Source: Patescibacteria group bacterium
GTDB taxonomy: Bacteria > Patescibacteriota > Minisyncoccia > 2-02-FULL-40-12
DNA length: 57,988 nt
Assembly: GCA_038065855.1 (NCBI GenBank)
Contig: JBBTQD010000013.1
Location: forward strand, 1 to 57,988
Direction: 5' to 3'
The notes under the pieces were generated by a model that saw only the letters and a program-made list of their open reading frames with translations, made no database searches and had not been told where the DNA came from. Position numbers and translations under genes: made by a program. This document shows positions 24,711 through 44,474 of the stretch, piece by piece. Numbering within the stretch: position 1 is the stretch's first letter; each line of letters opens with the position of its first letter.

Positions 24711-24711
24711 C

Positions 24712-26418: not shown

Positions 26419-27551
26419 TTCAAAAAATTACAATCACACTTGCCGCATTGATTAGGGGGGTCATTTTCGGCCCTGCTCGTTTGATACCCCAGAATCCGCG
26501 CCGGATTGTTGTGGCCCAAATGGGACGCTTAGGTGATATGGTATGTACGACGCCGATCTTTCGGGCGCTAAAAGACCGGTATCCCGAGTGCGAAGTGTTG
26601 GTGGTGGGGATGCCCGGCAATGCCGGGGTTTTAGCCGATCACCCAGATGTTAATCAGTATTATCCGTATTCCGGCAATGCATGGCAACTTGTCAGAATTT
26701 TGCGTACTATGAATGCCGATGCAGCTATTCTTTGCGGTCCTCACGGTTTAGTATTGGCCGTGATGCTTGCTGCCGGAATCCCGGCAGTTATTACTCCGGA
26801 AGTGGTCGGCGGACATAGTCCTTATGAAACCCGAATTTATAAATTCCTGCGGCGTTTTGCTGTAACCAAGCCGCATGACATGCTTAAATACGCCCCGCGG
26901 GAGTATCTAAATCTTTTAGAACCGTTTGGCATCCAGACTGATGATACGCGCAAGGAACTGGCGTATTCATCCTCGGCGCGGCAGTATGTTCAGACAAAGG
27001 CGATTGAAGCCGGCATAACTCTTGGGACAGACATTTGTATCGGTATCACTCCAACAGCCGGCAATAAAATAAAAGAGTGGCCGGCAGAAAGGTTTGGCAA
27101 GTTGGCTAGTATGATTGCCAAAGAGTATGGGACGAAAATAGTTGTGCTTGGCTCGCAGAATGATCACGCGCGAGTTAAAGAGATGCTAACAGCGGTTGAT
27201 TCGGGTGTTAAGATTTGGAATACTTGCGGCCAAATGGATTTAGATCAACTCAAGGCGCTGATTGATAATTTGGATTGTGTTATTGCCGTGGACACGGGGC
27301 CGATTTATATTGCTGAAGCATTTGGTGTCCCTACCATCGATATTGTGGGGCCGATGGATGAGAATGGCCAACCGCCGCGAGGTTCAAAACATATTATCGT
27401 GAAAGCAGATGTTCCCGGGTATCCATTTTTACGGATTATGAATGCCCGGATATATGATCCTATCGGCGCCCGGCAGGCAGTTGAGGCGATCACCCCGGAA
27501 ATGGTTCTGGAAAAATCTAGAGAGCTTTTAAATGATTTAAAAAATAAATGA
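26415..27551 (+). CDS. GT9 glycosyltransferase (ADP-heptose:acceptor heptosyltransferase-like)
   Basis: RRIVVAQMGRLGDMVCTTPIFRALKDRYPECEVLVV (the hallmark GT9 N-terminus); ...KEWPAERFGKLA...VVLGSQND...; DTGPIYIAEAFGVPTI. A sampled line is about 60% GC. Confidence 0.8.
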   Translation: MIQKITITLAALIRGVIFGPARLIPQNPRRIVVAQMGRLGDMVCTTPIFRALKDRYPECEVLVVGMPGNAGVLADHPDVNQYYPYSGNAWQLVRILRTMNADAAILCGPHGLVLAVMLAAGIPAVITPEVVGGHSPYETRIYKFLRRFAVTKPHDMLKYAPREYLNLLEPFGIQTDDTRKELAYSSSARQYVQTKAIEAGITLGTDICIGITPTAGNKIKEWPAERFGKLASMIAKEYGTKIVVLGSQNDHARVKEMLTAVDSGVKIWNTCGQMDLDQLKALIDNLDCVIAVDTGPIYIAEAFGVPTIDIVGPMDENGQPPRGSKHIIVKADVPGYPFLRIMNARIYDPIGARQAVEAITPEMVLEKSRELLNDLKNK

Positions 27552-28918
27552 AAAAAACCATATTTATATCGGCTTATAATCCTTTTATTGCCAGGAATAT
27601 TTTCAATACCGGTGTTTTAGGAGATTTGCGTAAACAAACTGATCTTCAGATCGTTTTATTGGTTCCAGCCGACAAAAAAGATTTTATGGAAAAATATTAT
27701 GGCGGCGATAATATCTTTGTAGAGGCAAGAGATTTTGAGGAATATATAAATAAAAATAAATTTTGGTATCGGCTGGCTTTTTTGCTTCAAAATACTCGGT
27801 ATGTCAAAGACCAGCGAGCCGAACGCCTTTGGAAGAATAAAAATCTCTTCAGATACTTGAATTATTGGTTAGTAAGTTTATCAGCTTTGATTTTAAGCAA
27901 TCTACCTTTAGCCAGAAAAATCTATCGGAATCTGGATTATCATTTTTCATCACAAAACGCCTTTAGTGAATTTTTTGAAAAGCATCAGCCTTTGCTTGTT
28001 TTTTCGACCGACATTTTTGGAGAGACTGATATATTTTTGATAAGAGAGGCTAGAAGCCGGGCTATTCCCATAATCGGGATGGTTCGTTCCTGGGATAACC
28101 CTACTACTAAGGGTATTTTGAGAGTTATACCAGAGAAAATTATCGTAAACAGTCCGGTAATGAAAGAAGAGCTTATAAAATTTCATGATTGCAAAGAAGA
28201 AAATATTTTAGTTGCTGGCTATCCGCAATTTGACAATTGGCTAAATGACCAGACTTTATCCAGAGATGATTTTTTTAAAAAAATAGGAGCTGATCCAGTA
28301 AAGCAGCTTATTTTGTTTGCTCCAGCCGGGAAGGTTCTTTCTGATACTGACTGGCAGCTTTGTCAGATATTGAAAGAAGCGCTTGACGACGGTTCATTGT
28401 CCGTCAATATCCAATTTTTAGTCCGTAACCATCCTCATCACCCGGCTGATCTTTCTATGTTTAAAAAAGATCCCCGGTTTATTATCGAAATTCCGGGCAT
28501 GAGAAATAAAGATTGGAGTGATAAAAAAGTTGAGTACGGGCCGGAAGAAAACGATCATTTGAAAAATTCTATTTACTACTCTGATATCATTATGTATGTC
28601 GCCACCACCTTGGGCTTGGATGCCACCGTTTTTAATAAGCCCCAGATCATGGTGAGCTTCGATGGCTGGGAATCAAAATCATATGTCCAAAGCGTCAGGC
28701 GCTATAACCGAGAAGACTGTTTGCAAAACTTAGTCAGGTGCGGAGGGACTCGAGTGGTTAAAAGCAAAAAAGAATGGATAAAATCAATCAACGAGTATCT
28801 TAGAGATCCGTCTCTTGATCAAGCCGGACGAGACAAAACAGTTACAGAACATTTATATAGAATAGACGGTAAGGCCGGCGAGAGAATAGCTAATTTCATA
28901 TCAGAATTTATTAAATGA
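27548..28918 (+). CDS. Hypothetical protein, possibly a GT-B-fold glycosyl- or glycerophospho-transferase
   Basis: 456 aa with two Rossmann-like halves (KKTIFISAYNPF...; LILFAPAGKV...RNHPHHP...). I recognise no diagnostic motif. Confidence 0.35.
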   Translation: MKKTIFISAYNPFIARNIFNTGVLGDLRKQTDLQIVLLVPADKKDFMEKYYGGDNIFVEARDFEEYINKNKFWYRLAFLLQNTRYVKDQRAERLWKNKNLFRYLNYWLVSLSALILSNLPLARKIYRNLDYHFSSQNAFSEFFEKHQPLLVFSTDIFGETDIFLIREARSRAIPIIGMVRSWDNPTTKGILRVIPEKIIVNSPVMKEELIKFHDCKEENILVAGYPQFDNWLNDQTLSRDDFFKKIGADPVKQLILFAPAGKVLSDTDWQLCQILKEALDDGSLSVNIQFLVRNHPHHPADLSMFKKDPRFIIEIPGMRNKDWSDKKVEYGPEENDHLKNSIYYSDIIMYVATTLGLDATVFNKPQIMVSFDGWESKSYVQSVRRYNREDCLQNLVRCGGTRVVKSKKEWIKSINEYLRDPSLDQAGRDKTVTEHLYRIDGKAGERIANFISEFIK

Positions 28919-30903: not shown

Positions 30904-32391
30904 ATGCTTAAATTCATTTTACCTCTTTTGATCCTTGGTAGTCTTTTATTTGTCTCTCTTTCCTCTGCCCAAACCGTCCCGGATCTCGGAACTCTTGTAA
31001 AACAGCTCCAAGATCAGATTAAGCTTCTTAATCAGCAGATAGCCGACCTCCAATCTCGCCTTAAACAAACCGAGGAAGAAGTTAAAGTAGTCAAAGCCGA
31101 ATTAAAACTAACCAGGTCTCTAAGAAAGGGCGATTCTAACGATGAAGTAAAACAACTCCAGGAATTTCTTAAACAATTCCCAGATATATACCCAGAGGGC
31201 ATAGCAAGTGGTTTTTTCGGAGAACTAACCGAGAGAGCAGTAAAGAAATTCCAGGAAAAACACGGTATTGAGTCAATCGGTATTGTCGGCCCAAAGACCA
31301 TTCAGAAGTTAAGCGAGTTTTCAGTCAGCGCCCCACCGGGAATTCCGGCTATCCCCGCTATTCCAGCGATTTCGGCCTCACCTTCTTTGCCTTTTCAGCC
31401 GGCTTCAGCATCTCTGCCCACGGTTACTCCGATTACAACCCTAGCCATTCCTGCAACTACAGTAACACCAGCTATACCAGCGGTTTCTGGCGTATCTCCG
31501 GCAGTCCCAGCTCAACCGGCAATACCGGTAACTCCAGCTTCTGCATCAGTATCAAAAACCCCAACCCCAACTCCGACCCCTATCCCAAGTCCAACCCCAA
31601 TTCCGACGCCCACGCCAAGTTCTGCTAAACCATCAGTTGTAACTTTTTCAGGCAATGACGGCACTTGGTGTTATAAATCTGATTATTATCCCGAAGCGCC
31701 CTGGTCCCACAGAGTAACCACAAAGGGTTATTGTCAGGATAATACTGGCGCTTACTTTAATGATTCTTGTCAGAGTGATGGGAAGACTATTGATGAATAT
31801 TCCTGTTTTTATAGCTCTTATTATGATGCCGGAGTTATAAAGAGCACTACTAGATGCGAACGCGACGGCTTAGCTTGTTCAAGCGGTTTAGGCAGTAATG
31901 TCGGCAATGCCTGTTCTAACGGAGTCTGTGCAGCTGCGGCAACTCCGACCCCGACCCCAACCCCAACACCTACTCCTACTCCAACTCCGGCAGCAAGTTC
32001 TCAATATACTATGCAAGGTTCTGACGGTACCTGGTGCATTGACGGCGACTATGGCACTTCCACCCCTGATGGTTCATGGGGGCCGGTTTATATAAAGAGT
32101 GATTGTCAAGATCAATCAGGAACTCTTTATGATTATTGCGATGCCTCCGGCAATGTTCATGACTGGGGCTGCGTTGGCCTGTCGGACGGAACCGGCCGCA
32201 AAGATGTAAAATGTTCTGAATCCGGTTATCAGGTTAGCGGGACAAGTTACGGCAACCGTGGTTATACCTGTTCAGGCGGAGGATTGATAAAGACTAGCTT
32301 GTCTTCAACCCCCGCCACCGCCAATATCCTATACGCTCTGAAAGCAATTCTGCAGAATCTCAGTAACCTTCTCTTTCAGTTGAATCCCTAA
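30904..32391 (+). CDS. Secreted protein: signal peptide, coiled coil, PG_binding_1 domain, Pro/Thr linkers, two Cys-rich modules
   Basis: LILGSLLFVSLSSAQ signal; LRKGDSNDEVKQLQEFL...GFFGELTERAVKKFQEKHGI; PTPTPTP linkers (31558-31620, 31941-31990). The G.DGTWC...CQD..G...D.C pattern is duplicated. Confidence 0.7.
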   Translation: MLKFILPLLILGSLLFVSLSSAQTVPDLGTLVKQLQDQIKLLNQQIADLQSRLKQTEEEVKVVKAELKLTRSLRKGDSNDEVKQLQEFLKQFPDIYPEGIASGFFGELTERAVKKFQEKHGIESIGIVGPKTIQKLSEFSVSAPPGIPAIPAIPAISASPSLPFQPASASLPTVTPITTLAIPATTVTPAIPAVSGVSPAVPAQPAIPVTPASASVSKTPTPTPTPIPSPTPIPTPTPSSAKPSVVTFSGNDGTWCYKSDYYPEAPWSHRVTTKGYCQDNTGAYFNDSCQSDGKTIDEYSCFYSSYYDAGVIKSTTRCERDGLACSSGLGSNVGNACSNGVCAAAATPTPTPTPTPTPTPTPAASSQYTMQGSDGTWCIDGDYGTSTPDGSWGPVYIKSDCQDQSGTLYDYCDASGNVHDWGCVGLSDGTGRKDVKCSESGYQVSGTSYGNRGYTCSGGGLIKTSLSSTPATANILYALKAILQNLSNLLFQLNP

Positions 32392-32445
32392 TCCTAAAAA
32401 TCAAAGTCTTGACTTCTAAAGACTGCGGGTTTTTAATTGCCAAAT

Positions 32446-33021
32446 ATGGCAAAAATCTCTGATCAGATATTTAAGTCAATTCAGGCAAAAATTGATTTAT
32501 TAAAGGATTTTGACCAAATCATGAATATTGATCTAGCCGGCCGTCAGATTATAGATGTTTTGAATAAGGGCAATAAGATTTTAATTGCCGGAAACGGCGG
32601 ATCAGCCGCTGATGCCCAGCATTTTTCGGCGGAACTGGCCGGGAAATTCATATCTGTAAGAAAAGGCCTTCCGGCAGTTGCTTTGACTACTAATTCTTCA
32701 AATATAACTGCGATAGCCAATGACTTTGGCTATGATCAAGTTTTTGTCAGACAGCTTGAAGCTTTAGCAAAACCAGGCGATGTATTTTTTGGGATTTCAA
32801 CCAGCGGCAATTCTGAAAATTTAATAAAAGCTTTGGAATGGGGAAGAAATAATAATTTGATTAATATAGGATTACTTGGCAAAGGCGGCGGGAAAATGAA
32901 AGACTATTGCGATGTTTCAATAATCGTGCCTTCAGACAACACTCAAAACATCCAAGAATCACATATTATGATTATTCATATCCTTTGTCAGATGATTGAT
33001 GAAGCGTTTAGTGGAAAATAA
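32446..33021 (+). CDS. gmhA: D-sedoheptulose-7-phosphate isomerase (SIS domain)
   Basis: ILIAGNGGSAADAQHFSAELAGKF...LPAVALT...TAIANDFGYDQVF.RQL...GDVFFGISTSGNS.N is the classical GmhA signature. I prefer the ATG at 32446 over the listed TTG at 32437. Confidence 0.85.
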   Translation: MAKISDQIFKSIQAKIDLLKDFDQIMNIDLAGRQIIDVLNKGNKILIAGNGGSAADAQHFSAELAGKFISVRKGLPAVALTTNSSNITAIANDFGYDQVFVRQLEALAKPGDVFFGISTSGNSENLIKALEWGRNNNLINIGLLGKGGGKMKDYCDVSIIVPSDNTQNIQESHIMIIHILCQMIDEAFSGK

Positions 33022-33023
33022 AG

Positions 33024-33059
33024 AAGGCCTTGCAAATCGGGAGTGATTTGCAAGGCCTT
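33024..33059 (-). terminator. Perfect 15-bp hairpin between convergent gmhA and the radical SAM gene
   Basis: aaggccttgcaaatc-gggagt-gatttgcaaggcctt. On the minus strand it is followed by ttctttatttt. It lies 27 nt downstream of the rSAM stop. Confidence 0.6.
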
Positions 33060-33086: not shown

Positions 33087-34856
33087 CTACATGTCCAGAA
33101 TTCGGAGGGTTTGGCCGGAGTCGACGTACTCGCGGGCTTGCAGGAACACGTCATTAGGCATGTCGCTGAAGTTCAGCGGTTCGCCGTCCGGGCCGTGAAG
33201 GAGCTTGGTGGCGTCGTCCAGTTCCAGGCAGTAGTTGTAGAACGCTTCGTCGCAGACAGGTTCCCACTTGCCATCGGCCAGTTGGAAGTTCAGGCCAAAG
33301 ACTCGTGTGAGCTCGGCCCGCACCTTGGGGTGATTAATTAGCTCCGTCCCCGGATACCAGGTGAGAGTGAACATGTTTTTGTTCACTGCTTCCTCCGGTA
33401 TGCCGAAGGTTGCGTAGTAATCAATTTGCCACTTCATGAAAGCAACCGTTTGCTTAAGCCGTTCCAACGTTTCGCTGGGGTTGCCCATAATCCAGGTGCA
33501 GTTAGAGTGGATTCCCGCTTCCATGGTGTGCTTGATGCCGTAGACCATGGCTTTGGGAAACCAGTACCTGCGGCCGTCAATCGATACCGGAATCAGGCCG
33601 GCTCTGGTGGTAAATCCTCCTTTACCGAGTTCTTCAAGGGTGTCCAGGTGGGCGCTTTCAGGCCCGAAGCCGATGTAGCGACAGCCGGCCTCGGCCATGA
33701 GATTAACCCTAAGCGGATCCTCAAAGATATAGTCAGTAAAAAAGTTTCTTTCCTTGGACGACTGGGCTGGGTTAGGTTTCAAACCAGCGGCTTCGTCGAG
33801 ACGGGTGTGGGTGCCCCAAGGAATCTTAATGCCTTCCGCGACAATGATATCACGGAGCTCCTTGATCCTCTTGAATGTCACCGCAAAGTTGTCATCCGGC
33901 CAGCTTTTAAAGGCAATGCCGTACTTTGCGGTGTGTTCTTTGATCTCCTCGACCAGATGGCGGGCGGATCTTACATGCCATTTGCGTTCTCCTTGGGCCC
34001 CTCGGTAGCAGTACTTGCAGCCGTAGGGACAACCGCGGGAAGAAACGGAAGTGGTTTTCGGCGCGGTTACAAACGGAGCAGCCGAGCTGTTGTTGGCGCT
34101 CAACCCCCAGGCTTCTGTTTGGATGTACTTTTCGAGGACTTTTTCTCCGTCAACATCTTCTTTTAGAAGCTCGAGATCAGCCCAAGGGAATCTGTCGAGG
34201 TCATCAGGCCTGTCGCCTTCATACATCAGGCGGCCGGAGCCGTCTTTCAGGAGATACGGTTCTAGTTTGCCTGAATTGAGAGCGTGCCGTCTGCTGAATC
34301 GTCGTATGGTCGCCGCGTCGCAGCAGATTTTGACGATGATATCGTCGCCTTCGGAGTGGGCTACCGCATCAAGTTCGGGAATGTAGTTAAACAACCCCGT
34401 CTTCAATTCAGTGGCCAGTCCTCCGCCGGAAACGAGCATCGTATGAGGCACAAGCCGACGGACCATCTTTGCCACAGCTTTCTGCCATTTCAAGGTGGTG
34501 ATCATGCCAGAGAGACAAACAAGATCCGGCTCTCCAAATCTGACGAAGTGGCGTTTGATTTTGTCAAAAGCCTCTTCTTGGGTGAGATGGCGACCATTCA
34601 CTAACCCACGTTTTTGAGCGAGTTCGTCTTTTCTCCGGTAAGCATTGAGGTCGATGAGAGATGCATTGACCCCGTAGTTCCGGATTAGGTTAGTTGCCAT
34701 CAACAATGGTCCCTCGGGTGTGGTGTTTGGTACCGCTGTTTCCCGAAGCGGCATATTGATAAAAACAACGTTTAGCCCCTCAACATCTCTTGTTGCAATG
34801 CCCCTTATCACCTCTGAAGGATGGATATGGGGCTGGATTACGTTTAGATTCGTCAT
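33087..34856 (-). CDS. B12-binding-domain radical SAM enzyme (class B rSAM)
   Basis: N-terminal Rossmann-like cobalamin domain (VVFINMPLRE...PDLVCLSGMITTLKWQKAVAKMVRRLVPHTMLVSGGG). CX3CX2C cluster motif SSRGCPYGCKYCY. ATG at 34856 sits 6 nt after AAGGAGG (34863-34869, rc). The listed TTG at 34862 lies inside the SD spacer. Sampled GC is about 57%. Confidence 0.85.
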   Translation of the reverse strand: MTNLNVIQPHIHPSEVIRGIATRDVEGLNVVFINMPLRETAVPNTTPEGPLLMATNLIRNYGVNASLIDLNAYRRKDELAQKRGLVNGRHLTQEEAFDKIKRHFVRFGEPDLVCLSGMITTLKWQKAVAKMVRRLVPHTMLVSGGGLATELKTGLFNYIPELDAVAHSEGDDIIVKICCDAATIRRFSRRHALNSGKLEPYLLKDGSGRLMYEGDRPDDLDRFPWADLELLKEDVDGEKVLEKYIQTEAWGLSANNSSAAPFVTAPKTTSVSSRGCPYGCKYCYRGAQGERKWHVRSARHLVEEIKEHTAKYGIAFKSWPDDNFAVTFKRIKELRDIIVAEGIKIPWGTHTRLDEAAGLKPNPAQSSKERNFFTDYIFEDPLRVNLMAEAGCRYIGFGPESAHLDTLEELGKGGFTTRAGLIPVSIDGRRYWFPKAMVYGIKHTMEAGIHSNCTWIMGNPSETLERLKQTVAFMKWQIDYYATFGIPEEAVNKNMFTLTWYPGTELINHPKVRAELTRVFGLNFQLADGKWEPVCDEAFYNYCLELDDATKLLHGPDGEPLNFSDMPNDVFLQAREYVDSGQTLRILDM

Positions 34857-34965
34857 TTCCAACCTCCTTGGTAAGGTGCGAAAAGTTCAGAATTATATTA
34901 TCTATTATTTTTTCAAAAATTACAACAATTGACGCGGACTCAAATTATTGTTATTTAAATCTAAT

Positions 34966-35529
34966 ATGACTAAAAAACTTTTAGAGAAATTCAGAAAAGT
35001 AAAAATTCTTGCCCTTGATAATGACGGTGTGCTTACGCCTTTGTATCTTGATACAGGTGTGATTATGACCAAAGAAGCGGCCAGTCAGCATACTGGCCGG
35101 GATTTCGTTTATGTTTTTGAATCAGCCAGATACTCTCATAAAGACGGCCAGGGCATTGATTTAGTGCGTAAGGAAAATGTTGGAGTATCAGTTTTTATTT
35201 TAACGACCCAAAGAAGCGGTTACGTTCAAGCTCGGGCTTGGAAGCTCGGTGTGCCTTTAGTTCAGAATAAAGATAAGGTTGTTGGATTAAAAGAATACTT
35301 AAAAGAAAATTATCCTAAAGTGAGTATGAAAGAAATTTGTTTTGTTGGCGATAGTACCGGCGATATTGAGATAATGAAACTAGTTGGCGTTTCAGCCTGC
35401 GTGGCTGACGGTGCCAAAGAAGCAAAAAAAGTCGCTGATTATGTTACCAAGGCAAAAGGCGGCGATGGAGCAGTAAGAGAAGTCTGTGATTTAATTATTG
35501 AAGCTAAAACTGGCTCCAAAAGAAAATAA
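34966..35529 (+). CDS. KdsC-type HAD-IIIA sugar-acid phosphate phosphatase, divergent copy (#1)
   Basis: ILALDNDGVLT (DxD motif I); VGDSTGDIE (motif IV); C-terminal ADYVTKAKGGDGAVREVCDLII. Carries a ~30-aa insertion after motif I relative to copies #2 and #3. Confidence 0.65.
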   Translation: MTKKLLEKFRKVKILALDNDGVLTPLYLDTGVIMTKEAASQHTGRDFVYVFESARYSHKDGQGIDLVRKENVGVSVFILTTQRSGYVQARAWKLGVPLVQNKDKVVGLKEYLKENYPKVSMKEICFVGDSTGDIEIMKLVGVSACVADGAKEAKKVADYVTKAKGGDGAVREVCDLIIEAKTGSKRK

Positions 35530-36423: not shown

Positions 36424-36948
36424 TTATTTAATTTTTCCTTCTTTGGCTAAAACAACTAAATCGCAGATTTCTCTTACTGCATGATCCCCGCCTTTTCTTT
36501 TAGTTATATAATCAGCTACTTTTTTACAATTCGGATTAGCGTCAGCAACAGTAAAAGACAGTCCAGCATATTGCATACATTCTAAATCGTTCCAGTCATC
36601 ACCCATAAAAGCCGCCTCCGAGGGGTTTATCTTTTTTTCTTTAAGGATTTTTTTAAAGAGAGTTAATTTATCGTTTATCCCGTGAGCATATTCAGTTTTA
36701 AGTTTTTTACTTCGCGTGGCCACTATTTTGTTTGGTTCTTTTGAAATAACTATTAATTTAAGGCCAAGACGTTGCAATTCATTAATACCCAGTCCGTCTT
36801 TGCGACTACAAACAACATGTTCAATTCCATCTTCGCTCAATATAACCTTTCCATCAGTAAAGATGCCATCAAAATCAAAACCGATGAGTTTAAGTTTTTT
36901 AAGTTTTAGTAAAAGTTTTTTAGGAATTTTTATATAGTTGTTTGACAT
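36424..36948 (-). CDS. KdsC-type HAD-IIIA phosphatase (#2)
   Basis: LIGFDFDGIFTDG...CSRKDGLGI...ISKEPN...MGDDWNDLECMQYAGLSFTVADA...ADYITKRKGGDHAVREICDLV. Confidence 0.8.
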   Translation of the reverse strand: MSNNYIKIPKKLLLKLKKLKLIGFDFDGIFTDGKVILSEDGIEHVVCSRKDGLGINELQRLGLKLIVISKEPNKIVATRSKKLKTEYAHGINDKLTLFKKILKEKKINPSEAAFMGDDWNDLECMQYAGLSFTVADANPNCKKVADYITKRKGGDHAVREICDLVVLAKEGKIK

Positions 36949-37018: not shown

Positions 37019-37753
37019 ATGGATAGTAATCAAAGAATCTTGGTTGGGGTTTTTTCCGGATTGGTCTTCAGCGGTAAGTCGTTCTTTCGGACTTGGGTGA
37101 TGAGTCTGCCCGATTACAAGGACGCCGTGTTTGTAGCCATGGATGACATCCGTCAGCGCTTCTGGCCGAAGAGAAGCGACACTCACATCGTTAAGACCGA
37201 GCATGTTTTCAAGAACGAGGCGACTCGGTTTGAAGTGAAGACCAAGTTGATAATAGAGAGGCCGCTAGCTGTGTTTCTGGAAATGGTGATGCTGACTCGT
37301 GAGGCTCATCAGCGGCCATTTGTGGAGATGATTAAGAGCGTGAATGAGTACCTTCAGACCATCGGAAGAGAAGAGGCCCAGAGAGACGGCAAGCCAGCTT
37401 CCGAATCACCAGTTGAAGTGGATTTCAGGTGCATCTACTTTTACTGTGATTTAGAGACGGTAAAACGGCGAATCGGTTATCGCCAGCGGGAGTTGGAAAC
37501 CGTCGGTAATATATTTAATGCCAGCGTGTTCGATTTCAGCGGTTTCCTGCGCGGAGCCCAACAGATTGAGATTCCGCCGGCTGGCTACATCCCTTTGTAC
37601 CTTGATACTTCAGACGAGTCGGAAGCGGCACTGACTCGCCAGCGCGAAGAGATTCTTTCTTTTTTGAGAGGCGAGATGCCGATCAGTGAAGAAGAACTTC
37701 AGAGACGCGCTGTCGATGCAGTCAGTTTTCTTGACGAAGCTCGTCGTGCCTAA
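37019..37753 (+). CDS. P-loop NTPase / putative small-molecule kinase
   Basis: Walker A GLVFSGKS at the N-terminus (ILVGVFSGLVFSGKS), 244 aa, acidic C-terminal tail. Sampled GC is about 53%. Strong SD. Confidence 0.5.
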   Translation: MDSNQRILVGVFSGLVFSGKSFFRTWVMSLPDYKDAVFVAMDDIRQRFWPKRSDTHIVKTEHVFKNEATRFEVKTKLIIERPLAVFLEMVMLTREAHQRPFVEMIKSVNEYLQTIGREEAQRDGKPASESPVEVDFRCIYFYCDLETVKRRIGYRQRELETVGNIFNASVFDFSGFLRGAQQIEIPPAGYIPLYLDTSDESEAALTRQREEILSFLRGEMPISEEELQRRAVDAVSFLDEARRA

Positions 37754-40367: not shown

Positions 40368-41105
40368 TTATATCTTTAGAATCCCTTTCTTTCTTAGTTT
40401 CTGAAATTTCATTTCTGCGTCAGCCCACTCATCAGGAGTATTGATGTCAGCCTCGTAATTTGACGGGTCGGGGATGATATAAAGTTCCACTTTATTGCCG
40501 TAAAGATTAGATTTTTTCTCAAAAAGATTTTTTGGCTTTAAGACATAGATAAGGTCATTCCGGGCATAGCACTTTTGCGGAAAGTCCTGGCTCCGGGTAA
40601 TGATATTTTTCAAACTTACTCCGCCCCAGAGACTGACTTTTCCTTTTGGAGAGCGAATTAGAGTCCAATAAGGTGTATGATTGGCTGGAGTTTCATTGAC
40701 TGCCACGACCGAGCTAACCTTCTTCTTTTTGAAAATTTCAATTGCTTCGTCAATGTGGCGGGTTTGTCTTAAGGGGGCAGTAGGCATTAAAAGAACCAAA
40801 GCATTGGCCTTGTAATTCTCGTTTTTCAAAAGCCATTCATAAGCGTGTTTCAAAGTCGGCTCGATACCAATAGTCGGGATAGCTAACTCGGCTGGTCTTA
40901 AAAACGGGACTTCAGCACCGTATTTTTTGGCGATTCTGGCGATTTCTTTATCGTCGGTGGAAACGATTACTCGATCTAGCTGTTTGCTTTTAAGGGCGTT
41001 TAAAATAGTCCAGGCAATCATTGGCTTGCCGCAGAAGTTCCTTATATTTTTTTTCGGTATTCTCTTTGACCCGCCCCGCGCCGGGATAACTGCTACGATT
41101 TTCAT
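40368..41105 (-). CDS. Acylneuraminate/ulosonate cytidylyltransferase (CTP_transf_3 family)
   Basis: MKIVAVIPARGGSKRIPKKNIRNFCGKPMIAWTI...VIVSTDD...LRPAELA.... Confidence 0.85.
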   Translation of the reverse strand: MKIVAVIPARGGSKRIPKKNIRNFCGKPMIAWTILNALKSKQLDRVIVSTDDKEIARIAKKYGAEVPFLRPAELAIPTIGIEPTLKHAYEWLLKNENYKANALVLLMPTAPLRQTRHIDEAIEIFKKKKVSSVVAVNETPANHTPYWTLIRSPKGKVSLWGGVSLKNIITRSQDFPQKCYARNDLIYVLKPKNLFEKKSNLYGNKVELYIIPDPSNYEADINTPDEWADAEMKFQKLRKKGILKI

Positions 41106-41145: not shown

Positions 41146-41694
41146 TTGGACAAAAATAACGATATATTTTATAGTGTTTCAGTGAAAAAAGTTTCTTCTG
41201 TTTTGGAGAAAAAATTAAAAAACATTAAATTCATCGGCTTTGATTTTGACGGGGTTTTTACTGATGCCAGAGTTTATCTTAACCAAGATGGTGTTGAAAC
41301 TATAGTTTGCAGCCGGCGTGACAGCTTGGGCCTTAATCAGATTCGGAAACTTGGGATAAAGCTTGCCGTCATCTCTATGGAGCCGAATCCGGTCATTACC
41401 AAGCGCTGCGAAAAACTAAATATCCCTTGTCATACAGGTAAAGAAAAACTGCCGATGTTTAAGGAAGTTATAAAGTCAGAAAAATTAAAACCAAACCAAG
41501 TCGCTTATTTTGGCGATGACTTGAATGATTTGGAGTGTCTGAAATATGCTGGTTTAGCTTTTACCGTCGCCGATGGCGCGCCGGCCTGCTTAAAAGAAGC
41601 CGACTACGTGACCGAAAGGCGAAGCGGAGATCATGCTGTCAGAGAAGTTTGCGACCTTATTCTCAAAGCCCACAAAGTTAGCCGCTACTTATAA
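41146..41694 (+). CDS. KdsC-type HAD-IIIA phosphatase (#3)
   Basis: FIGFDFDGVFTDA...CSRRDSLGL...ISMEPN...FGDDLNDLECLKYAGLAFTVADG...ADYVTERRSGDHAVREVCDLI. About half the residues are identical to copy #2 by eye. The listed start is TTG, so the exact start is uncertain. Confidence 0.8.
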   Translation: MDKNNDIFYSVSVKKVSSVLEKKLKNIKFIGFDFDGVFTDARVYLNQDGVETIVCSRRDSLGLNQIRKLGIKLAVISMEPNPVITKRCEKLNIPCHTGKEKLPMFKEVIKSEKLKPNQVAYFGDDLNDLECLKYAGLAFTVADGAPACLKEADYVTERRSGDHAVREVCDLILKAHKVSRYL

Positions 41695-42506
41695 TGAAAA
41701 ATCCAATCGGCATAATGCAGGGGCGGTTATCGCCTTCACTTGACGGAAGATTTCAGTTTTTCCCCAGTGACTGGCAGGCCGAATTTAAAATTGCCAAAGA
41801 GTTAGGCTTTGATTTGATTGAGTGGTTTGTTGATTATAGAGACGACGAGCCAAACTCGGTCGGTTTATGGACAGACGATTCAACCAGAAAAAAGATTGAG
41901 GAAGCTTCTAAAATAGTTTCGGTTGTTTCGGCTGATTGCGGCCGACTGGGTCTTTCCGGTAAAAGTTTTTCTGAAAAGTTATTCAAAGATTTTATCTCTT
42001 CGGCTTCCGGAAAAATAAAAACATTCAATATCCCGCTTCTGGAAGAAGCTTCAATTAAGGATGAATTAGCCAGAAAAGAGGCGCTTCAAAACATTGAACA
42101 AATTTTGGAATACGCCGATAAATTTGATGTCCGGATTGGTTTGGAGGTGGATCTAAGAGCCGAAGAACTACTGGATTTTATAAATAAGATCAATTCTTCA
42201 AGAATAGGAGTTTGCTATGATATTGGGAACTGCACTTCCTACGGTTTTAATTGTCCGGAAGAAATAAGAATTTTGGGCGATAAAATATTTGAAGTTCATT
42301 TAAAAGACCGGAAAGTCGGCGGCAATCAGTCGATGACTTTAGGAGAGGCCGATGCCGACTTTGATGGTTGCTTTTTGGCTCTAAAAGAGATAGGATATAA
42401 AGGCAATTATATCTTACAGGCTTGGCGCGGTAAGGATTATCTTGACGATGCCAGAAAACAGCTTGAATTTACCAAAAATAAACTAAATAACCCTGAAAAT
42501 GTCTAA
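41694..42506 (+). CDS. Xylose-isomerase-like TIM-barrel sugar(-phosphate) isomerase/epimerase
   Basis: PIGIMQGRLSP...AKELGFDLIEW...GLEVD...CYDIGN...EVHLKD... gives the metal-ligand spacing of the AP_endonuc_2 / UlaE-SgbU-like family. Confidence 0.65.
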   Translation: MKNPIGIMQGRLSPSLDGRFQFFPSDWQAEFKIAKELGFDLIEWFVDYRDDEPNSVGLWTDDSTRKKIEEASKIVSVVSADCGRLGLSGKSFSEKLFKDFISSASGKIKTFNIPLLEEASIKDELARKEALQNIEQILEYADKFDVRIGLEVDLRAEELLDFINKINSSRIGVCYDIGNCTSYGFNCPEEIRILGDKIFEVHLKDRKVGGNQSMTLGEADADFDGCFLALKEIGYKGNYILQAWRGKDYLDDARKQLEFTKNKLNNPENV

Positions 42507-43320
42507 ATCATTGGAATCTTTTTCACTGAAAGACAAAGTTATAATTATTACCGGCGGAACCGGGAATTTGGGAGTTGATTATTGCGCCGGCCTTTTAAAA
42601 GCCGGAGCCACGGTTATATCTTGGGATTTAAATCCTAAAACAGAAGAAGTTTCAAATAAACTTAAAGAACGCGGCGCCGACACAAATAGGTTTCACAATC
42701 TTAAGGTTGACATTACCAGCGAATCAGAAGTTCAGGCGGCGGTTCAAAATTGTCTTAATTCTTTCGGAAAGATTGACGCATTGATAAATAATGCGGCCAT
42801 GAATCCGGCTGTCGGCATTGACGAGTCAAAAAAATTGTTTGTTCCTTATGAAGAATACCCGATAGAGCTTTGGGAAAAGGAGCTGAAGGTCAATCTTACC
42901 GGGATGATGATTTGTACCAAATCGGTGGCGCCGACAATGATGAAACAGAAAAACGGCTCAATAGTGAATATTGCTTCTGAAGTGGCTAACATTGCCCATG
43001 ATCACAGAGTTTATAACGAACCGGATAAATTTAAGTCGGTTGCCTATGTGACCACCAAGACCGGTATTTTGGGATTTACTCGGCAATGGGCCGCCCGGCT
43101 CGGTTCTTACAATATCCGAGTAAACGCTTTTTCTCCGGGTGGTGTTCAATCGCCGAATGTGCCTAAAGACTTTGCTGAAAGATTCGGCCGGATGAATATG
43201 TTCGGCCGGATGGCCCAACCAGGTGAGTATAACGGCGTGATTATTTTTCTCTGTTCTGATGCTTCTTCTTTTATGACCGGCGCCAATCTGACCGTTGACG
43301 GTGGCAAAAGTGCCTGGTAA
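42499..43320 (+). CDS. Short-chain dehydrogenase/reductase
   Basis: VIIITGGTGNLG; NNAAMNP; S...YVTTK (Ser-Tyr-Lys triad). Confidence 0.85.
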   Translation: MSKSLESFSLKDKVIIITGGTGNLGVDYCAGLLKAGATVISWDLNPKTEEVSNKLKERGADTNRFHNLKVDITSESEVQAAVQNCLNSFGKIDALINNAAMNPAVGIDESKKLFVPYEEYPIELWEKELKVNLTGMMICTKSVAPTMMKQKNGSIVNIASEVANIAHDHRVYNEPDKFKSVAYVTTKTGILGFTRQWAARLGSYNIRVNAFSPGGVQSPNVPKDFAERFGRMNMFGRMAQPGEYNGVIIFLCSDASSFMTGANLTVDGGKSAW

Positions 43321-43400
43321 ATTTAATTTGATGCTTAATCCTCTTGCCAAGTTGGCGAACTTTCTTCGTCTGCGCCCCTCTTTAGAAACAGGAGATGTCC

Positions 43401-43436
43401 AAGGCGCGATGCCCCCATCGCGCCTTTCTTTTTTAT
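43401..43436 (+). terminator. Rho-independent terminator after the SDR gene
   Basis: aaggcgcgatg-cccc-catcgcgcctt followed by tctttttt. It lies inside the listed ORF 43395..44474, which argues that ORF really starts downstream. Confidence 0.7.
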
Positions 43437-43460
43437 ATTGCATTTGGTAAGATTATTTTA

Positions 43461-44474
43461 ATGCCTCTATTTCCTAAGAGATTTTTCCCTCGCCTGGTCC
43501 GGTTCATTACCGGCCGTTCTGCCGAAACCACTCAAGACGTATATATTAATGGTATTGCAGTCGGTCGAGCCAAGTCCTGTTTTTTTGTCGCCGAAATAGG
43601 GATTAATCATAATGGTTCGATTGAAATAGCCAAGAAGCTTATTGATGTAGCAAAAGATGCCGGCGCCCAAGCAGTTAAATTCCAAAAGCGGACTGTACCG
43701 GTTGTATATTCGGTCGAAGAGCTGGCCAAGCTCAGAGCCGTGGATAGGGGAGTTTTGGAAAATGCAATTAAGCGCGGAGTTTTGTCAAAAGAAGCAGTCG
43801 AACGTTTGAAAAAATCAGATTTTAAAGATTCGACCAATGGCGATTTGAAATGGGCTTTGGAATTCACTGAAGCCGAATATAGGGAAATTGACCGATACTC
43901 TAAAGAAAAAGGAATTTTCTGGTTTGCCTCACCTTGGGATGAAGCCAGTGTTGATTTTCTGGAAAAATTAAATCCACCCTGTCACAAAGTTGCTTCAGCT
44001 ATGCTTACCCACACTGGAATTTTGAGAAAACTTAGAGAAGCTGGGAAACCGGTGATCGCATCAACTGGCATGAGTACAATGGAAGAAGTTAAAAATGCGG
44101 TCAATCTTTTATCCGGCATTCCTTTAGTTTTACTTCATACTGTTTCAACTTATCCGGCTAAAGAGGAAGAAGTGAATTTAAGGACGATTGCTAAATTTAG
44201 ACAGGAGTTTCCGAAAATCCCGATAGGTTATAGCGGCCACGAACAAGGAATTGCAGCAACTTTAGCAGCTGCTACTTTAGGCGCCCATGTGATTGAAAGA
44301 CATATCACTCTTGATAAAAAAATGTTCGGTACCGATCAGTCAGCTAGCTTAGAGCCTCAGGAATTTGGCCAAGTTATTAAAGAAGTCCGGGAGATTGAGA
44401 AAGCTTGGGGAGATGGCGTCAAAAGAGTCTGGCCCTCGGAGATTCCGATTAAAGAAAAACTCCGAAAAGTTTAA
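43461..44474 (+). CDS. NeuB-family PEP-condensing sugar-acid synthase, without the C-terminal SAF domain
   Basis: CFFVAEIGINHNGSIEIAKKLIDVAKDAGAQAVKFQKR...FASPWDEASVDFL...KVASAML...STGMSTMEEV...LLHTVSTYPA...NLRTI...IGYSGHEQGIA...GAHVIERHITLDK...DQSASLEP. Ends about 20 aa after the TIM barrel. ATG at 43461 chosen because the terminator lies upstream. Confidence 0.8.
   Translation: MPLFPKRFFPRLVRFITGRSAETTQDVYINGIAVGRAKSCFFVAEIGINHNGSIEIAKKLIDVAKDAGAQAVKFQKRTVPVVYSVEELAKLRAVDRGVLENAIKRGVLSKEAVERLKKSDFKDSTNGDLKWALEFTEAEYREIDRYSKEKGIFWFASPWDEASVDFLEKLNPPCHKVASAMLTHTGILRKLREAGKPVIASTGMSTMEEVKNAVNLLSGIPLVLLHTVSTYPAKEEEVNLRTIAKFRQEFPKIPIGYSGHEQGIAATLAAATLGAHVIERHITLDKKMFGTDQSASLEPQEFGQVIKEVREIEKAWGDGVKRVWPSEIPIKEKLRKV

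What the first reader, a model, noticed from the sequence alone, without database searches (positions are those of the whole stretch)
33087..34856. B12-binding radical SAM enzyme embedded in a sugar-acid / heptose cluster
This 589-aa protein has an N-terminal cobalamin-binding Rossmann domain and a CX3CX2C motif (GCPYGCKYC). It is convergent with gmhA and divergent from a KdsC-like phosphatase gene. It has its own AAGGAGG, a TATAAT box on the minus strand (34892-34897, rc) and a 15-bp hairpin terminator.

Class B rSAM enzymes typically methylate unactivated carbon or phosphorus, or perform other radical rearrangements. Sugar-directed examples I know of come from aminoglycoside and phosphonate antibiotic pathways (GenK- and Fom3-type chemistry). 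I am not aware of any in cell-surface glycan loci of reduced-genome bacteria.

Together with the TylC3-like C-methyltransferase at 9513-10766, the window would encode two mechanistically different routes to C-branched sugars. Cobalamin dependence would also be notable in an organism unlikely to synthesise B12.
Basis: partly seen in the sequence, partly recalled or inferred. Interest (0 to 1): 0.7.

Follow-up and report, generated by a model that had tools for sequence, protein, structure and literature searches.

The report
B12 radical enzyme for sialic-like sugars
This gene encodes an uncharacterised vitamin-B12-type radical enzyme that usually sits beside the genes that build and activate sialic-acid-like surface sugars, in tiny groundwater bacteria, marine bacteria and possibly phages, which points to an undescribed radical modification of those sugars.

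Summary
The ORF at 33087-34856 (-) encodes 589 aa with an invariant CX3CX2C motif, a strong RBS and a 15-bp terminator hairpin. It is convergent with a GmhA-like gene and divergent from a KdsC-like gene.

Fold search places it among class-B radical SAM enzymes (TsrM, OxsB, TokK, CysS). The three published cobalamin-binding motifs map to conserved residues. No curated family claims it, and it belongs to a sharply delimited, uncharacterised family.

In Patescibacteria loci with at least 4 kb of flank on both sides, a PseF-like cytidylyltransferase and a NeuB-like synthase each occur in 28 of 32, with KdsC-like phosphatase and SDR genes also common. An rSAM + cytidylyltransferase pair persists in Roseibium, Polyangiaceae, Opitutia and 17 of 17 IMG/VR contigs.

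Best reading: a cobalamin-dependent radical enzyme dedicated to a CMP-activated 3-deoxy-2-ulosonic acid pathway. That link is about 0.8 likely. C-methylation is the most likely chemistry, at about 0.45 overall, and remains unproven.

I found no literature describing a radical SAM enzyme in this sugar class. Cobalamin supply in the source organism could not be assessed. The enzyme is not peculiar to this genome; it is a widespread module.

The parts
33087..34856 (-). Class-B (cobalamin-type) radical SAM gene, 589 aa (GenBank protein MEK7659289.1); stop codon at 33087-33089
34272..34775 (-). N-terminal Rossmann (cobalamin-binding) domain, about residues 28-195. It carries the downstream motif C114-L-S116-G117-M118-I-T120-T121, the Gly-Gly motif G144-G-G146 and S168-E169-G170-D171.
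   Evidence: Alignment to the TokK Cbl domain; column conservation; secondary structure of the model; motif definitions from PMC9204698
34008..34031 (-). CX3CX2C [4Fe-4S] motif (C276, C280, C283), followed by Y284 and the conserved R285
33438..34058 (-). Radical SAM partial-barrel core, about residues 267-473. It includes the D321-D322-N323 'GGE'-position motif and a variable insert at 356-382 that is longest in this protein.
33090..33437 (-). Family-specific C-terminal domain, residues 474-589, with conserved TWYPGT and LELDDATK motifs. It is the presumed substrate cap.
   Evidence: the cap role is inferred by analogy with OxsB, TokK and TsrM (PMC9204698)
34863..34869 (-). Shine-Dalgarno sequence AAGGAGG, 6 nt before the ATG
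34892..34925 (-). Promoter-like hexamers: TTGTAA-17-GATAAT, overlapping TATAAT at 34897-34892. They are not above chance expectation.
33024..33059 (-). Intrinsic-terminator hairpin with a perfect 15-bp stem, 6-nt loop and T-rich tail on the rSAM strand
40368..41105 (-). PseF-like CMP-ulosonic acid cytidylyltransferase (CTP_transf_3). This is the family's most constant partner. Here it lies 5.5 kb away on the same strand.
43395..44474 (+). NeuB-like PEP-condensing synthase that lacks the C-terminal (SAF) part of the NeuB model
34948..35529 (+). KdsC-like HAD phosphatase, divergent from the rSAM gene
36424..36948 (-). KdsC-like HAD phosphatase, passing the TIGR01670 subfamily cutoff
41146..41694 (+). 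KdsC-like HAD phosphatase, passing the TIGR01670 subfamily cutoff
41694..42506 (+). AP_endonuc_2 TIM-barrel protein resembling a ketose-phosphate 3-epimerase or isomerase
42499..43320 (+). SDR oxidoreductase resembling gluconate-5-dehydrogenase/KduD
32437..33021 (+). GmhA-like SIS sugar-phosphate isomerase, convergent with the rSAM gene
   Evidence: this cluster is present in 11 of 78 related loci
27548..28918 (+). Glyphos_transf / BFO_1060-like glycosyltransferase, the candidate transferase for the CMP-sugar
   Evidence: 18 of 32 CPR loci

Best explanation
The gene encodes a cobalamin-dependent (class B, class-1 architecture) radical SAM enzyme. It belongs to an uncharacterised family dedicated to a CMP-activated 3-deoxy-2-ulosonic acid pathway of the Kdo/Kdn/sialic-like type.

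Proposed pathway (inferred): a sugar phosphate is prepared by the SIS isomerase, the TIM-barrel protein and the SDR. The NeuB-like synthase condenses it with PEP. A KdsC-like phosphatase removes the phosphate. The PseF-like cytidylyltransferase activates the product with CMP.

Proposed reaction (inferred): the rSAM modifies the ulosonic acid at an unactivated carbon, either as the CMP-sugar (as Fom3 acts on CMP-activated hydroxyethylphosphonate) or just before activation. It would do so by reductive SAM cleavage, H-abstraction by the 5'-deoxyadenosyl radical, and most likely methyl transfer from methylcobalamin. This would give a C-methylated, branched or chain-extended ulosonic acid. That sugar would then be placed on a Wzx/Wzy-type surface glycan.

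What is shown: the fold, the cofactor motifs and the conserved gene linkage. What is inferred: the substrate class (about 0.8) and the methyl-transfer chemistry (about 0.45 overall).
For: Fold and cofactor motifs:
- The AF2 model (pLDDT 87.7) has class-B enzymes as its top 17 PDB matches.
- The N-terminal domain alone matches only TokK's Cbl domain.
- The Cbl motifs defined in PMC9204698 map to conserved residues. These are S116 in the downstream motif, G144/G146 in the Gly-Gly motif, and E169-G170-D171 at the Gly-Glu position.
- The canonical cluster motif is present, and the TokK-like D-D-N at the 'GGE' position suggests normal SAM ligation.

Gene linkage:
- By BLAST clustering, 49 of 78 loci hold the cytidylyltransferase within 10 kb. 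It is adjacent in 29 loci. It lies directly downstream and co-directional of 25 of 75 plus-strand rSAM genes, with gaps of -4 to 96 nt.
- In the HMM recount of loci with at least 4 kb on both sides, CPR loci have the cytidylyltransferase in 28 of 32, NeuB-like in 28 of 32, SDR in 25 of 32 and KdsC-like in 23 of 32. Non-CPR loci have the cytidylyltransferase in 11 of 17.
- A stand-alone rSAM + cytidylyltransferase pair sits among unrelated genes in Polyangiaceae, Opitutia and one Roseibium clade.
- In 17 IMG/VR contigs the cytidylyltransferase is adjacent in 17 of 17, and a NeuB-like gene is within a few genes in 16 of 17.

Partner identities: NCBIfam places the partners nearest PseF, NeuB, and KdsC or KDN-9-P phosphatase.

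Prior for methylation: most characterised class-B enzymes are methylases, including the sugar-directed GenK, GenD1, Fms7 and MoeK5 (list in PMC12931638).

Chemical precedent for such products: CMP-activated ulosonic acids with an extended carbon backbone, seen as a series of CMP-sugar masses 14 Da apart, exist in nature with no assigned enzyme (bioRxiv 10.64898/2026.04.20.719630).
Against: - No activity data exist.
- No curated methylase model is approached. NCBIfam scores are 15-66 bits against cutoffs of 250-750.
- The residues that mark TokK-type methylases are absent: the Trp under cobalt and the Trp after the Cys loop. The family has T120 and an OxsB-like Arg (R285) at those positions.
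- Sugar-acting class-B enzymes also include non-methylating ring-contraction enzymes, and AprD4 shares the fold without using cobalamin.
- Several loci show no partner within 10 kb: L025, L029, L049 and L052.
- In the window itself the cytidylyltransferase is 5.5 kb away.
- No Magnetospirillum homologue appeared among the 120 closest relatives of the Roseibium protein, so the C10-sugar link is only an analogy.
- Pfam B12-binding is below its cutoff.
Confidence: 0.45

Rival explanations
1. The pathway and substrate class are as above, but the chemistry is not methylation. The enzyme performs a cobalamin-assisted radical rearrangement, ring contraction, epimerisation, oxidation or C-C bond formation on the ulosonic acid. 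OxsB, BchE and (as proposed) HpnJ are the models.
For: - OxsB is among the best structural matches.
- The conserved Arg two residues after the Cys motif matches OxsB Arg323, not TokK Trp215.
- BchE is the highest-scoring NCBIfam model, and HpnJ also appears.
- The lower-face position 118 varies between M, K and I, unlike the fixed Trp of TokK-type methylases.
- Separate class-I methyltransferases are already common in these loci (clusters 6, 11 and 21).
Against: - Methylases are the large majority of characterised class-B enzymes.
- All NCBIfam scores are far below cutoff, so their ranking carries little weight.
- The 'GGE' position is TokK-like D-x-N rather than the OxsB-type Glu.
- The family lacks OxsB's CX4CX2C motif.
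Confidence: 0.27
2. The enzyme is a cobalamin-independent AprD4-like radical dehydratase. It works with the neighbouring SDR, as AprD4 works with AprD3, to deoxygenate the sugar acid. The Rossmann domain is only structural.
For: - AprD4 (6fd2) is a strong fold match, E 8e-14.
- An SDR is present in 25 of 32 CPR loci and is often close to the rSAM gene.
- Pfam B12-binding is sub-threshold.
Against: - The N-terminal domain matches TokK's genuine Cbl domain by sequence and does not match AprD4's.
- The DMB-pocket and tail-binding motifs (S116, G144/G146, E169-G170) are conserved.
- The AprD4 NCBIfam model scores 26.9 against a cutoff of 500, and only over the Cys-motif region.
- The SDR is absent from nearly all non-CPR loci (1 of 17).
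Confidence: 0.08
3. The enzyme acts on a different molecule of the same glycan programme. Candidates are an NDP-hexose, an N-acyl side chain, the lipid-linked oligosaccharide or the glycosylated protein. It is linked to the cytidylyltransferase only because both serve one glycan.
For: - In CPR the module is embedded in very large glycan loci with many other sugar genes.
- Several loci lack any ulosonic-acid gene within 10 kb.
Against: - The two-gene rSAM + cytidylyltransferase unit survives among unrelated genes, with no other glycan gene nearby, in Polyangiaceae, Opitutia and Roseibium L046.
- It is adjacent in 17 of 17 IMG/VR contigs.
- Start/stop overlaps of -4 and -1 nt suggest co-translation.
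Confidence: 0.15
4. The enzyme belongs to an unrelated process such as pigment, hopanoid, lipid or RiPP maturation, and merely sits in this locus.
For: The weak best NCBIfam hits are to BchE, ApyD and HpnJ.
Against: - These scores are 7- to 18-fold below their cutoffs.
- The family is sharply separated from other class-B families, with 45 representatives at E<=1e-30 and then relatives at about 30% identity.
- The linkage to sugar-acid genes is conserved across at least six phylum-level groups.
Confidence: 0.03

Closest known systems
TokK / ThnK / CysS-type cobalamin-dependent radical SAM C-methyltransferases (PDB 7kdx, 9n1b)
   Same: - The domain order is the same: Rossmann Cbl domain, then the rSAM partial barrel, then a C-terminal cap.
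- TokK gives the best sequence match to the Cbl domain.
- Both have a CX3CX2C motif and D-x-N at the 'GGE' position.
   Different: - Identity is about 16%.
- The family lacks TokK Trp76 under cobalt (Thr120 here) and Trp215 after the Cys loop (Arg285 here).
- The substrates differ: carbapenam or aryl ether for the known enzymes, a presumed sugar acid here.
- No curated methylase model is met.
Fom3 (fosfomycin) with the Fom1 cytidylyltransferase domain
   Same: From my own knowledge and PMC9088020-type reviews: Fom3 is a class-B rSAM whose substrate must first be CMP-activated by a partner cytidylyltransferase. That is the same enzyme-pair logic as the rSAM + cytidylyltransferase cassette found here.
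   Different: - The Fom3 substrate is a phosphonate, not a sugar acid.
- As far as I recall, its cytidylyltransferase belongs to a different family from CTP_transf_3 (from memory, not checked here).
- The P-methyltransferase and related NCBIfam models score only about 36-38 bits.
- I made no direct sequence comparison with Fom3.
GenK / GenD1 / Fms7 / MoeK5 sugar C-methylating class-B rSAMs
   Same: These are class-B rSAMs that methylate unactivated sugar carbons (listed in PMC12931638).
   Different: - They act in antibiotic pathways of actinomycetes, on aminoglycoside or phosphoglycolipid intermediates.
- No specific similarity to them was detected.
- The family studied here is linked to primary cell-surface glycan genes.
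OxsB (PDB 5ul2-5ul4) and HpnJ
   Same: - OxsB is a class-B rSAM that acts on a sugar moiety without methylating it.
- OxsB gives the highest query-normalised TM-scores (0.54-0.57).
- The family shares the Arg two residues after the Cys motif.
- HpnJ gives one of the longer NCBIfam alignments (residues 111-351).
   Different: - OxsB has CX4CX2C and an extra N-terminal domain, and Asn186 holds a water ligand under cobalt.
- HpnJ scores 40 bits against a cutoff of 578.
- The pathway contexts differ (oxetanocin, hopanoids).
Canonical CMP-Kdo, CMP-Kdn and CMP-NulO pathways (KdsD-KdsA-KdsC-KdsB; NeuB/PseI with NeuA/PseF)
   Same: The step logic is the same: SIS isomerase, PEP-condensing synthase, KdsC-type phosphatase, CTP_transf_3 cytidylyltransferase.
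   Different: - A NeuB-like enzyme replaces KdsA and lacks the C-terminal SAF region. It aligns to positions 1-278 of the 329-position model.
- All partners score below their equivalog cutoffs.
- The TIM-barrel protein, the SDR and the radical SAM enzyme are additions with no counterpart in the known pathways.

Membership tests
Radical SAM superfamily | CX3CX2C motif ligating a [4Fe-4S] cluster within a partial TIM barrel | tested here: met
   C276, C280 and C283 are conserved. Pfam PF04055 scores 46.4 bits against a 29.5 cutoff. The barrel is matched by fold search.
Class B (cobalamin-dependent) radical SAM, class-1 architecture (OxsB/TsrM/TokK type) | N-terminal five-stranded Rossmann Cbl-binding domain preceding the rSAM domain | tested here: met
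   The top 17 Foldseek PDB hits are all class-B enzymes. The model shows alternating strands and helices over residues 29-195. The TokK Cbl domain aligns at E 1.3e-4 with the N-terminal domain alone. Pfam PF02310 is sub-threshold at 26.1 bits against 32.1.
Class B (cobalamin-dependent) radical SAM, class-1 architecture | Base-off Cbl motifs: the downstream G/A-x-S/T-x-X motif after beta3, the Gly-Gly motif on beta4, and the Gly-Glu motif at alpha5 (PMC9204698) | tested here: met
   The downstream motif is [A/G/C]114-[L/F]-S116-G117-[M/K/I]118. The Gly-Gly motif is G144-[G/N/A]-G146. At the TokK G-E-G-E position the family has S168-E169-G170-D171, so the second Glu is replaced by a conserved Asp.
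Class B (cobalamin-dependent) radical SAM | Binds cobalamin and requires it for turnover | not testable with these tools
   This needs purified protein. AprD4 shows that the fold alone is not sufficient.
Cbl-dependent rSAM methyltransferases (TokK/ThnK/CysS subgroup) | Trp beneath cobalt (TokK W76) and Trp after the Cys loop (W215) | tested here: not met
   The equivalent positions are the conserved T120 and R285.
Any curated class-B equivalog: BchE, HpnJ, HpnR, PhpK, KedN5, Sden_1168, ApyD, TsrM-type Trp methylase, ladderane, BzaD, AprD4 | Score above the NCBIfam curated cutoff | tested here: not met
   The best is BchE at 66.2 bits against 481. All other class-B models score 14.7-40.6 bits against cutoffs of 251-775.
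AprD4-type Cbl-independent radical diol dehydratase | Sequence membership (NF033070) and a Rossmann domain lacking the Cbl motifs | tested here: not met
   The model scores 26.9 bits against 500, over residues 267-355 only. The N-terminal domain matches TokK, not AprD4. The Cbl motifs are conserved.
CMP-ulosonic acid (Kdo/Kdn/NulO-type) biosynthetic module | Co-located PEP-condensing synthase, sugar-acid phosphate phosphatase and CTP_transf_3 cytidylyltransferase | tested here: met
   In the window: NeuB-like at 43395-44474; KdsC-like at 34948, 36424 and 41146; PseF-like at 40368-41105. All score below equivalog cutoffs, except that two of the HADs pass the KdsC subfamily cutoff.
CMP-ulosonic acid biosynthetic module | Linkage of the rSAM to that module is conserved in other genomes | tested here: met
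   The cytidylyltransferase occurs in 28 of 32 CPR loci, 11 of 17 non-CPR loci and 17 of 17 IMG/VR loci.
CMP-ulosonic acid biosynthetic module | The rSAM's substrate is the ulosonic acid or its CMP ester | not testable with these tools
   This is inferred from gene linkage only.

The most novel reading that the evidence does not exclude
This family would be the first radical SAM / cobalamin enzyme of ulosonic-acid (sialic-acid-like) biosynthesis. It would convert a CMP-activated Kdo/Kdn-type sugar into a C-methylated, branched or chain-extended higher-carbon ulosonic acid. It would travel as a mobile two-gene cassette (rSAM + dedicated cytidylyltransferase) through Patescibacteria, marine Alphaproteobacteria, Myxococcota and Verrucomicrobiota. 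It may also be carried by large marine phages that remodel host surfaces. If so, ultra-small symbionts that cannot make vitamin B12 would need it to build their cell surface.
Probability: 0.35. Interest if true: 0.8.

Novelty: new variant of a known kind. Interest (0 to 1): 0.66.

Why it matters
- Ulosonic acids (Kdo, sialic, pseudaminic and legionaminic acids) are key surface-recognition sugars. Their known diversification uses N-/O-acylation, O-methylation and epimerisation. I found no report of radical, cobalamin-dependent chemistry on this class.
- A dedicated class-B rSAM would add carbon-skeleton editing to that repertoire. It would also give a candidate enzyme type for the unexplained higher-carbon CMP-ulosonic acids now being detected by mass spectrometry.
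- The family is abundant in Patescibacteria, where surface glycans are thought to mediate attachment to hosts. It would tie their surface chemistry to externally supplied B12.
- Cultured Roseibium strains carry a compact version of the module (WP_009759787.1, WP_192148946.1, WP_145342442.1), so the hypothesis is directly testable.

Tried and rejected
1. Magnetospirillum link. A preprint reports C10 CMP-ulosonic acids in M. gryphiswaldense. No Magnetospirillum protein appears among the 120 closest relatives (at least 50% identity) of the Roseibium member. I keep this as an analogy, not as evidence.

2. Paralogue pairs. Three loci (L012-L014) seemed to hold two copies. The second is an unrelated class-B family at 22% identity that passes both Pfam cutoffs. 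It is not a duplicate.

3. Recent horizontal transfer as the cause of the gene's high GC. The window protein sits inside a Patescibacteria clade next to L001 and L002. The GC3 excess is a property of the family in 87% of loci, so a single recent transfer does not explain it.

4. Isolated phages and plasmids. tblastn found no match in 50,697 GenBank phage records or 72,556 plasmids.

5. Viral status of the IMG/VR contigs. PHROGs on 10 flanking proteins gave only glycan enzymes and one weak endolysin-like domain. The viral status is unverified.

6. GT9-like or FlmG-like nature of the Roseibium TPR protein. BLASTP against the window's GT9 gene gave E 0.21, and Pfam found nothing. Not supported.

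7. Promoter. The hexamers exist but are no more frequent than in shuffled sequence.

8. Literature. Nine full-text searches, including 'radical SAM' + nonulosonic, CMP-Kdo, neuB or Patescibacteria, found no description of this family.

9. Cobalamin genes. None appears in the roughly 78 kb of the contig I could annotate. The rest of the genome was unreachable.
Full report
**1. Observation**

The ORF is real. The ORF listing gives 33087..34862 on the minus strand, 591 aa from a TTG. It lies 6 nt after a perfect AAGGAGG at 34869-34863.

The motif GCPYGCKYC is present. Pfam Radical_SAM passes its cutoff (46.4 against 29.5 bits). Pfam B12-binding is detected below its cutoff (26.1 against 32.1 bits).

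The gene is convergent with a GmhA-like SIS gene at 32437-33021 and divergent from a KdsC-like HAD gene at 34948-35529.

TATAAT sits at 34897-34892. Promoter-like sites are no more frequent than in shuffled sequence.

The terminator is convincing. It has a perfect 15-bp stem, a 6-nt loop and a T-rich tail on the rSAM strand. Its energy is -32.6 kcal/mol, with z = -6.5.

The gene is a GC island: 0.53 against about 0.33-0.40 in the flanks, with GC3 of 0.62.

**2. What the protein is**

An AlphaFold2 model built on a 28-sequence alignment is confident (pLDDT 87.7, pTM 0.88). Its 17 best PDB matches are all class-B radical SAM enzymes:
- TsrM, at E 3.6e-16
- OxsB
- TokK
- AprD4
- CysS
- the MCR glutamine methylase

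AprD4 has this fold but does not use cobalamin (PMC12931638). I therefore applied the sequence criteria of Bridwell-Rabb et al. (PMC9204698) through the HMMER alignment to TokK. The results were as follows.
- **Downstream Cbl motif:** [A/G/C]114-[L/F]-S116-G117-[M/K/I]118-I-T120-T121, with S116 invariant in the 28-sequence alignment.
- **Gly-Gly motif:** G144-x-G146.
- **TokK GEGE position:** S168-E169-G170-D171.
- **N-terminal domain alone:** it matches only TokK's Cbl domain in the PDB (E 1.3e-4) and not AprD4.
- **'GGE' SAM motif:** D321-D322-N323, like TokK's D-A-N. This argues for canonical SAM ligation and radical initiation.
- **Two residues after the third Cys:** an invariant Arg (R285), as in OxsB. 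It is not the Trp of TokK-type methylases.
- **TokK Trp76 position:** an invariant Thr (T120).

So the enzyme is a bona fide class-B, class-1 architecture enzyme by every feature that can be tested in silico. It is not a member of any characterised subgroup. NCBIfam's best score is BchE at 66 bits against a cutoff of 481.

An exhaustive HMMER scan of 1.84 billion representatives shows a sharply bounded family. It finds 45 representatives at E<=1e-30, then generic class-B relatives at about 30% identity.

**3. Distribution**

The word-indexed search found 750 homologues at E<=1e-5 among the scored candidates. The top 120 are all full length at 54-100% identity, and those that carry a name are labelled Patescibacteria, Parcubacteria, Yanofskybacteria or Azambacteria.

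The identical protein is MEK7659289.1. It lies on a 147.8-kb contig from Hainich groundwater well H51, 0.1 um fraction.

Among GTDB species representatives, 88 stretches encode a relative and 80 loci were kept. Most are Patescibacteria. The rest are:
- 13 Roseibium loci, including cultured R. aggregatum, R. litorale and strain TrichSKD4
- Polyangiaceae
- Planctomycetota
- Nitrospirae
- Acidobacteriota
- Opitutia
- a Deltaproteobacteria MAG
- marine alphaproteobacterial single-cell genomes

In a neighbour-joining tree the window protein nests inside a Patescibacteria clade with L001 (86% identity) and L002. The non-CPR sequences branch basally.

**4. The key test: genomic context**

I called ORFs in all loci, clustered them and read the gene orders. 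The recurrent order in Patescibacteria is:

Wzx flippase > NeuB-like < TIM barrel < SDR < KdsC-like HAD < [rSAM] > (methyltransferase) cytidylyltransferase > Glyphos_transf-type transferase <

The cytidylyltransferase is the most constant partner.
- It is present in 49 of 78 loci and adjacent in 29.
- It lies directly downstream and co-directional of 25 of 75 plus-strand rSAM genes, with gaps of -4 to 96 nt.

A more sensitive HMM recount used only loci with at least 4 kb on both sides.

| Partner | CPR loci (n = 32) | Non-CPR loci (n = 17) |
|---|---|---|
| Cytidylyltransferase | 28 | 11 |
| NeuB-like | 28 | 6 |
| SDR | 25 | 1 |
| KdsC-like HAD | 23 | 5 |
| Wzx flippase | 22 | 0 |
| Glyphos_transf | 18 | 0 |

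Roseibium carries a compact module: NeuB-like, KdsC-like (closest to KDN-9-P phosphatase), two methyltransferases, the rSAM, the cytidylyltransferase and a TPR protein.

In Polyangiaceae, Opitutia and a second Roseibium clade, only the rSAM + cytidylyltransferase pair remains. It is flanked by unrelated genes: a TRAP transporter, an ACT-domain protein and an IS200 transposase.

Unexpectedly, 17 IMG/VR contigs of 27-203 kb encode full-length members. The cytidylyltransferase is adjacent in 17 of 17, and a NeuB-like gene is nearby in 16 of 17.

The linkage to sugar-acid genes is the family's defining contextual feature.

**5. The window's own locus**

Here the module is somewhat dispersed.
- rSAM: 33087-34856 (-)
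- KdsC-like HADs: 34948, 36424 (-) and 41146
- Cytidylyltransferase: 40368-41105 (-)
- TIM barrel: 41694
- SDR: 42499
- NeuB-like: 43395

Lineage-specific genes are interspersed: an EamA transporter, a P-loop protein, an alpha/beta-hydrolase, a methyltransferase and a cupin.

The module lies inside a surface-glycan region of more than 60 kb that follows the Wzx/Wzy scheme. That region holds:
- at least 12 glycosyltransferases
- a flippase
- two PMT_2 proteins
- a carbamoyltransferase
- a Bac_transf initiating transferase
- a Wzy_C-TPR protein

It ends at about 52.8 kb, before secA.

**6. Mechanism**

*Shown:* the fold, the cofactor motifs and the conserved linkage.

*Inferred:* the pathway mirrors Kdo synthesis, which runs isomerase, PEP condensation, dephosphorylation and CMP activation. 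Here the enzymes are non-orthologous. A GmhA-like SIS isomerase stands in for KdsD, a NeuB-like synthase that lacks the SAF region stands in for KdsA, and a PseF-like enzyme stands in for KdsB. The rSAM is an added step.

The persistence of the two-gene cassette argues that the rSAM acts on the CMP-sugar, or that the cytidylyltransferase is specialised for the rSAM's product. The Fom3 / CMP-hydroxyethylphosphonate precedent (my own knowledge) makes the first option attractive.

I rank C-methylation first for two reasons. Most class-B enzymes, including all the sugar-directed antibiotic examples, are methylases. The SAM motif also looks canonical.

The OxsB-like Arg, the absence of the TokK Trp residues and the existence of ring-contracting sugar enzymes keep non-methylating chemistry as a serious rival.

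A 2026 preprint reports CMP-activated ulosonic acids with an extended (C10) backbone in Magnetospirillum. They appear as a series of CMP-sugar masses 14 Da apart, and no enzyme has been assigned. This shows that such products exist. I found no Magnetospirillum homologue among the closest relatives, so it is an analogy only.

**7. Novelty and limits**

Full-text searches found no paper linking a radical SAM enzyme to nonulosonic or Kdo-type sugar biosynthesis.

The limits of this work are as follows.
- My ORF calling was a simple longest-ORF heuristic.
- Loci extend only 10 kb either side of the rSAM gene.
- The taxon labels are those of the depositors.
- The tree is neighbour-joining.
- The viral status of the IMG/VR contigs is unverified.
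- Cobalamin supply in the source organism could not be examined beyond about 78 kb of the contig.

Noticed in passing
Related proteins P0103 (913 aa) and P0133 (886 aa): Two independent inteins interrupt the Fe-S cluster motif itself. In P0103 a LAGLIDADG-bearing intein sits between F282 and C283 (CPFSCAF|C...HN|CYRG). In P0133 another sits between A279 and C280 (CPFA|C...HN|CKFC).
   Followed up: partly
window 33087-34856 and rSAM genes of L001-L080: The rSAM gene is systematically richer in GC3 than its neighbours: the median excess is +0.09, and it is positive in 87% of 79 genes. Its pathway partners show no such excess. In the window GC3 is 0.62 against about 0.25-0.45. Recent transfer does not explain this, and it remains unexplained.
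   Followed up: partly
window 37019-37753, 38766-39845, 39861-40322, 44577-45686: Other genes in the locus are also high-GC3 islands (0.51-0.58). They are a P-loop protein with no family match above cutoff, a methyltransferase, a cupin and an ORF with no Pfam match. The locus is compositionally mosaic.
   Followed up: no
L087-L103 (IMG/VR contigs, 27-203 kb): Seventeen contigs classified as viral carry the rSAM + cytidylyltransferase + NeuB-like module in uniformly co-directional gene blocks. No isolated GenBank phage has it, and no hallmark gene was seen within 8 kb.
   Followed up: partly
L040 (Opitutia MAG) 9995-12453: This is the one locus where the rSAM is markedly AT-richer than its neighbours (GC3 0.29 against 0.53). 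Among the GTDB loci its protein is the closest relative (62-74% identity) of 13 of the 17 IMG/VR proteins, which suggests a recently acquired, possibly phage-derived cassette.
   Followed up: partly
L012 7741-9225 (-), and equivalents in L013 and L014: A second, unrelated class-B rSAM lies divergent from the family member, with a KdsC-like gene between them. It is about 495 aa and 22% identical, and it passes Pfam at B12-binding 58 bits and Radical_SAM 84 bits. Some Yanofskybacteria glycan loci therefore hold two different B12-type radical enzymes.
   Followed up: partly
window 43395-44474; L055 6460-7410: The NeuB-like synthases of this module align only to positions 1-278 of the 329-position NeuB model, and Pfam reports no SAF domain. 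They lack the C-terminal antifreeze-like domain, which hints at a non-canonical aldose substrate.
   Followed up: no
window 34948-35529, 36424-36948, 41146-41694: Three KdsC-like HAD phosphatase paralogues lie within 7 kb of one another. Two pass the KdsC subfamily cutoff.
   Followed up: no
The locus does hold a conventional sugar C-methylase as well.
   Followed up: yes
window 30904-32391 and 51131-52855: Two large proteins carry a PG_binding_1 domain. The first is Pro/Thr-rich with repeated Cys-rich modules, and it sits between the glycan genes and the GmhA-like gene. It may be a glycosylated surface protein.
   Followed up: no
window 24685-26418, 30099-30845: A NodU/CmcH-type carbamoyltransferase and a weak 2OG-Fe(II) oxygenase lie in the same locus. 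They imply further decoration (O-carbamoylation, hydroxylation) of the glycan.
   Followed up: no
window 1-52800 and about 10 kb beyond the left end: The glycan region exceeds 60 kb. It holds at least 12 glycosyltransferases, Wzx (5412-6692), two PMT_2 proteins (18090-19412; 21790-23250 on the minus strand), Bac_transf (47501-48862 on the minus strand) and Wzy_C-TPR (48894-51134). This is a large investment for a reduced genome.
   Followed up: partly
literature: bioRxiv 10.64898/2026.04.20.719630: CMP-activated C10 ulosonic acids (m/z 679.20, 693.21 and 707.23; C10 marker fragment 311.10) are reported in Magnetospirillum gryphiswaldense with no biosynthetic enzyme assigned. A C-methylating rSAM is an obvious candidate type, but no homologue of this family was found there.
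   Followed up: partly
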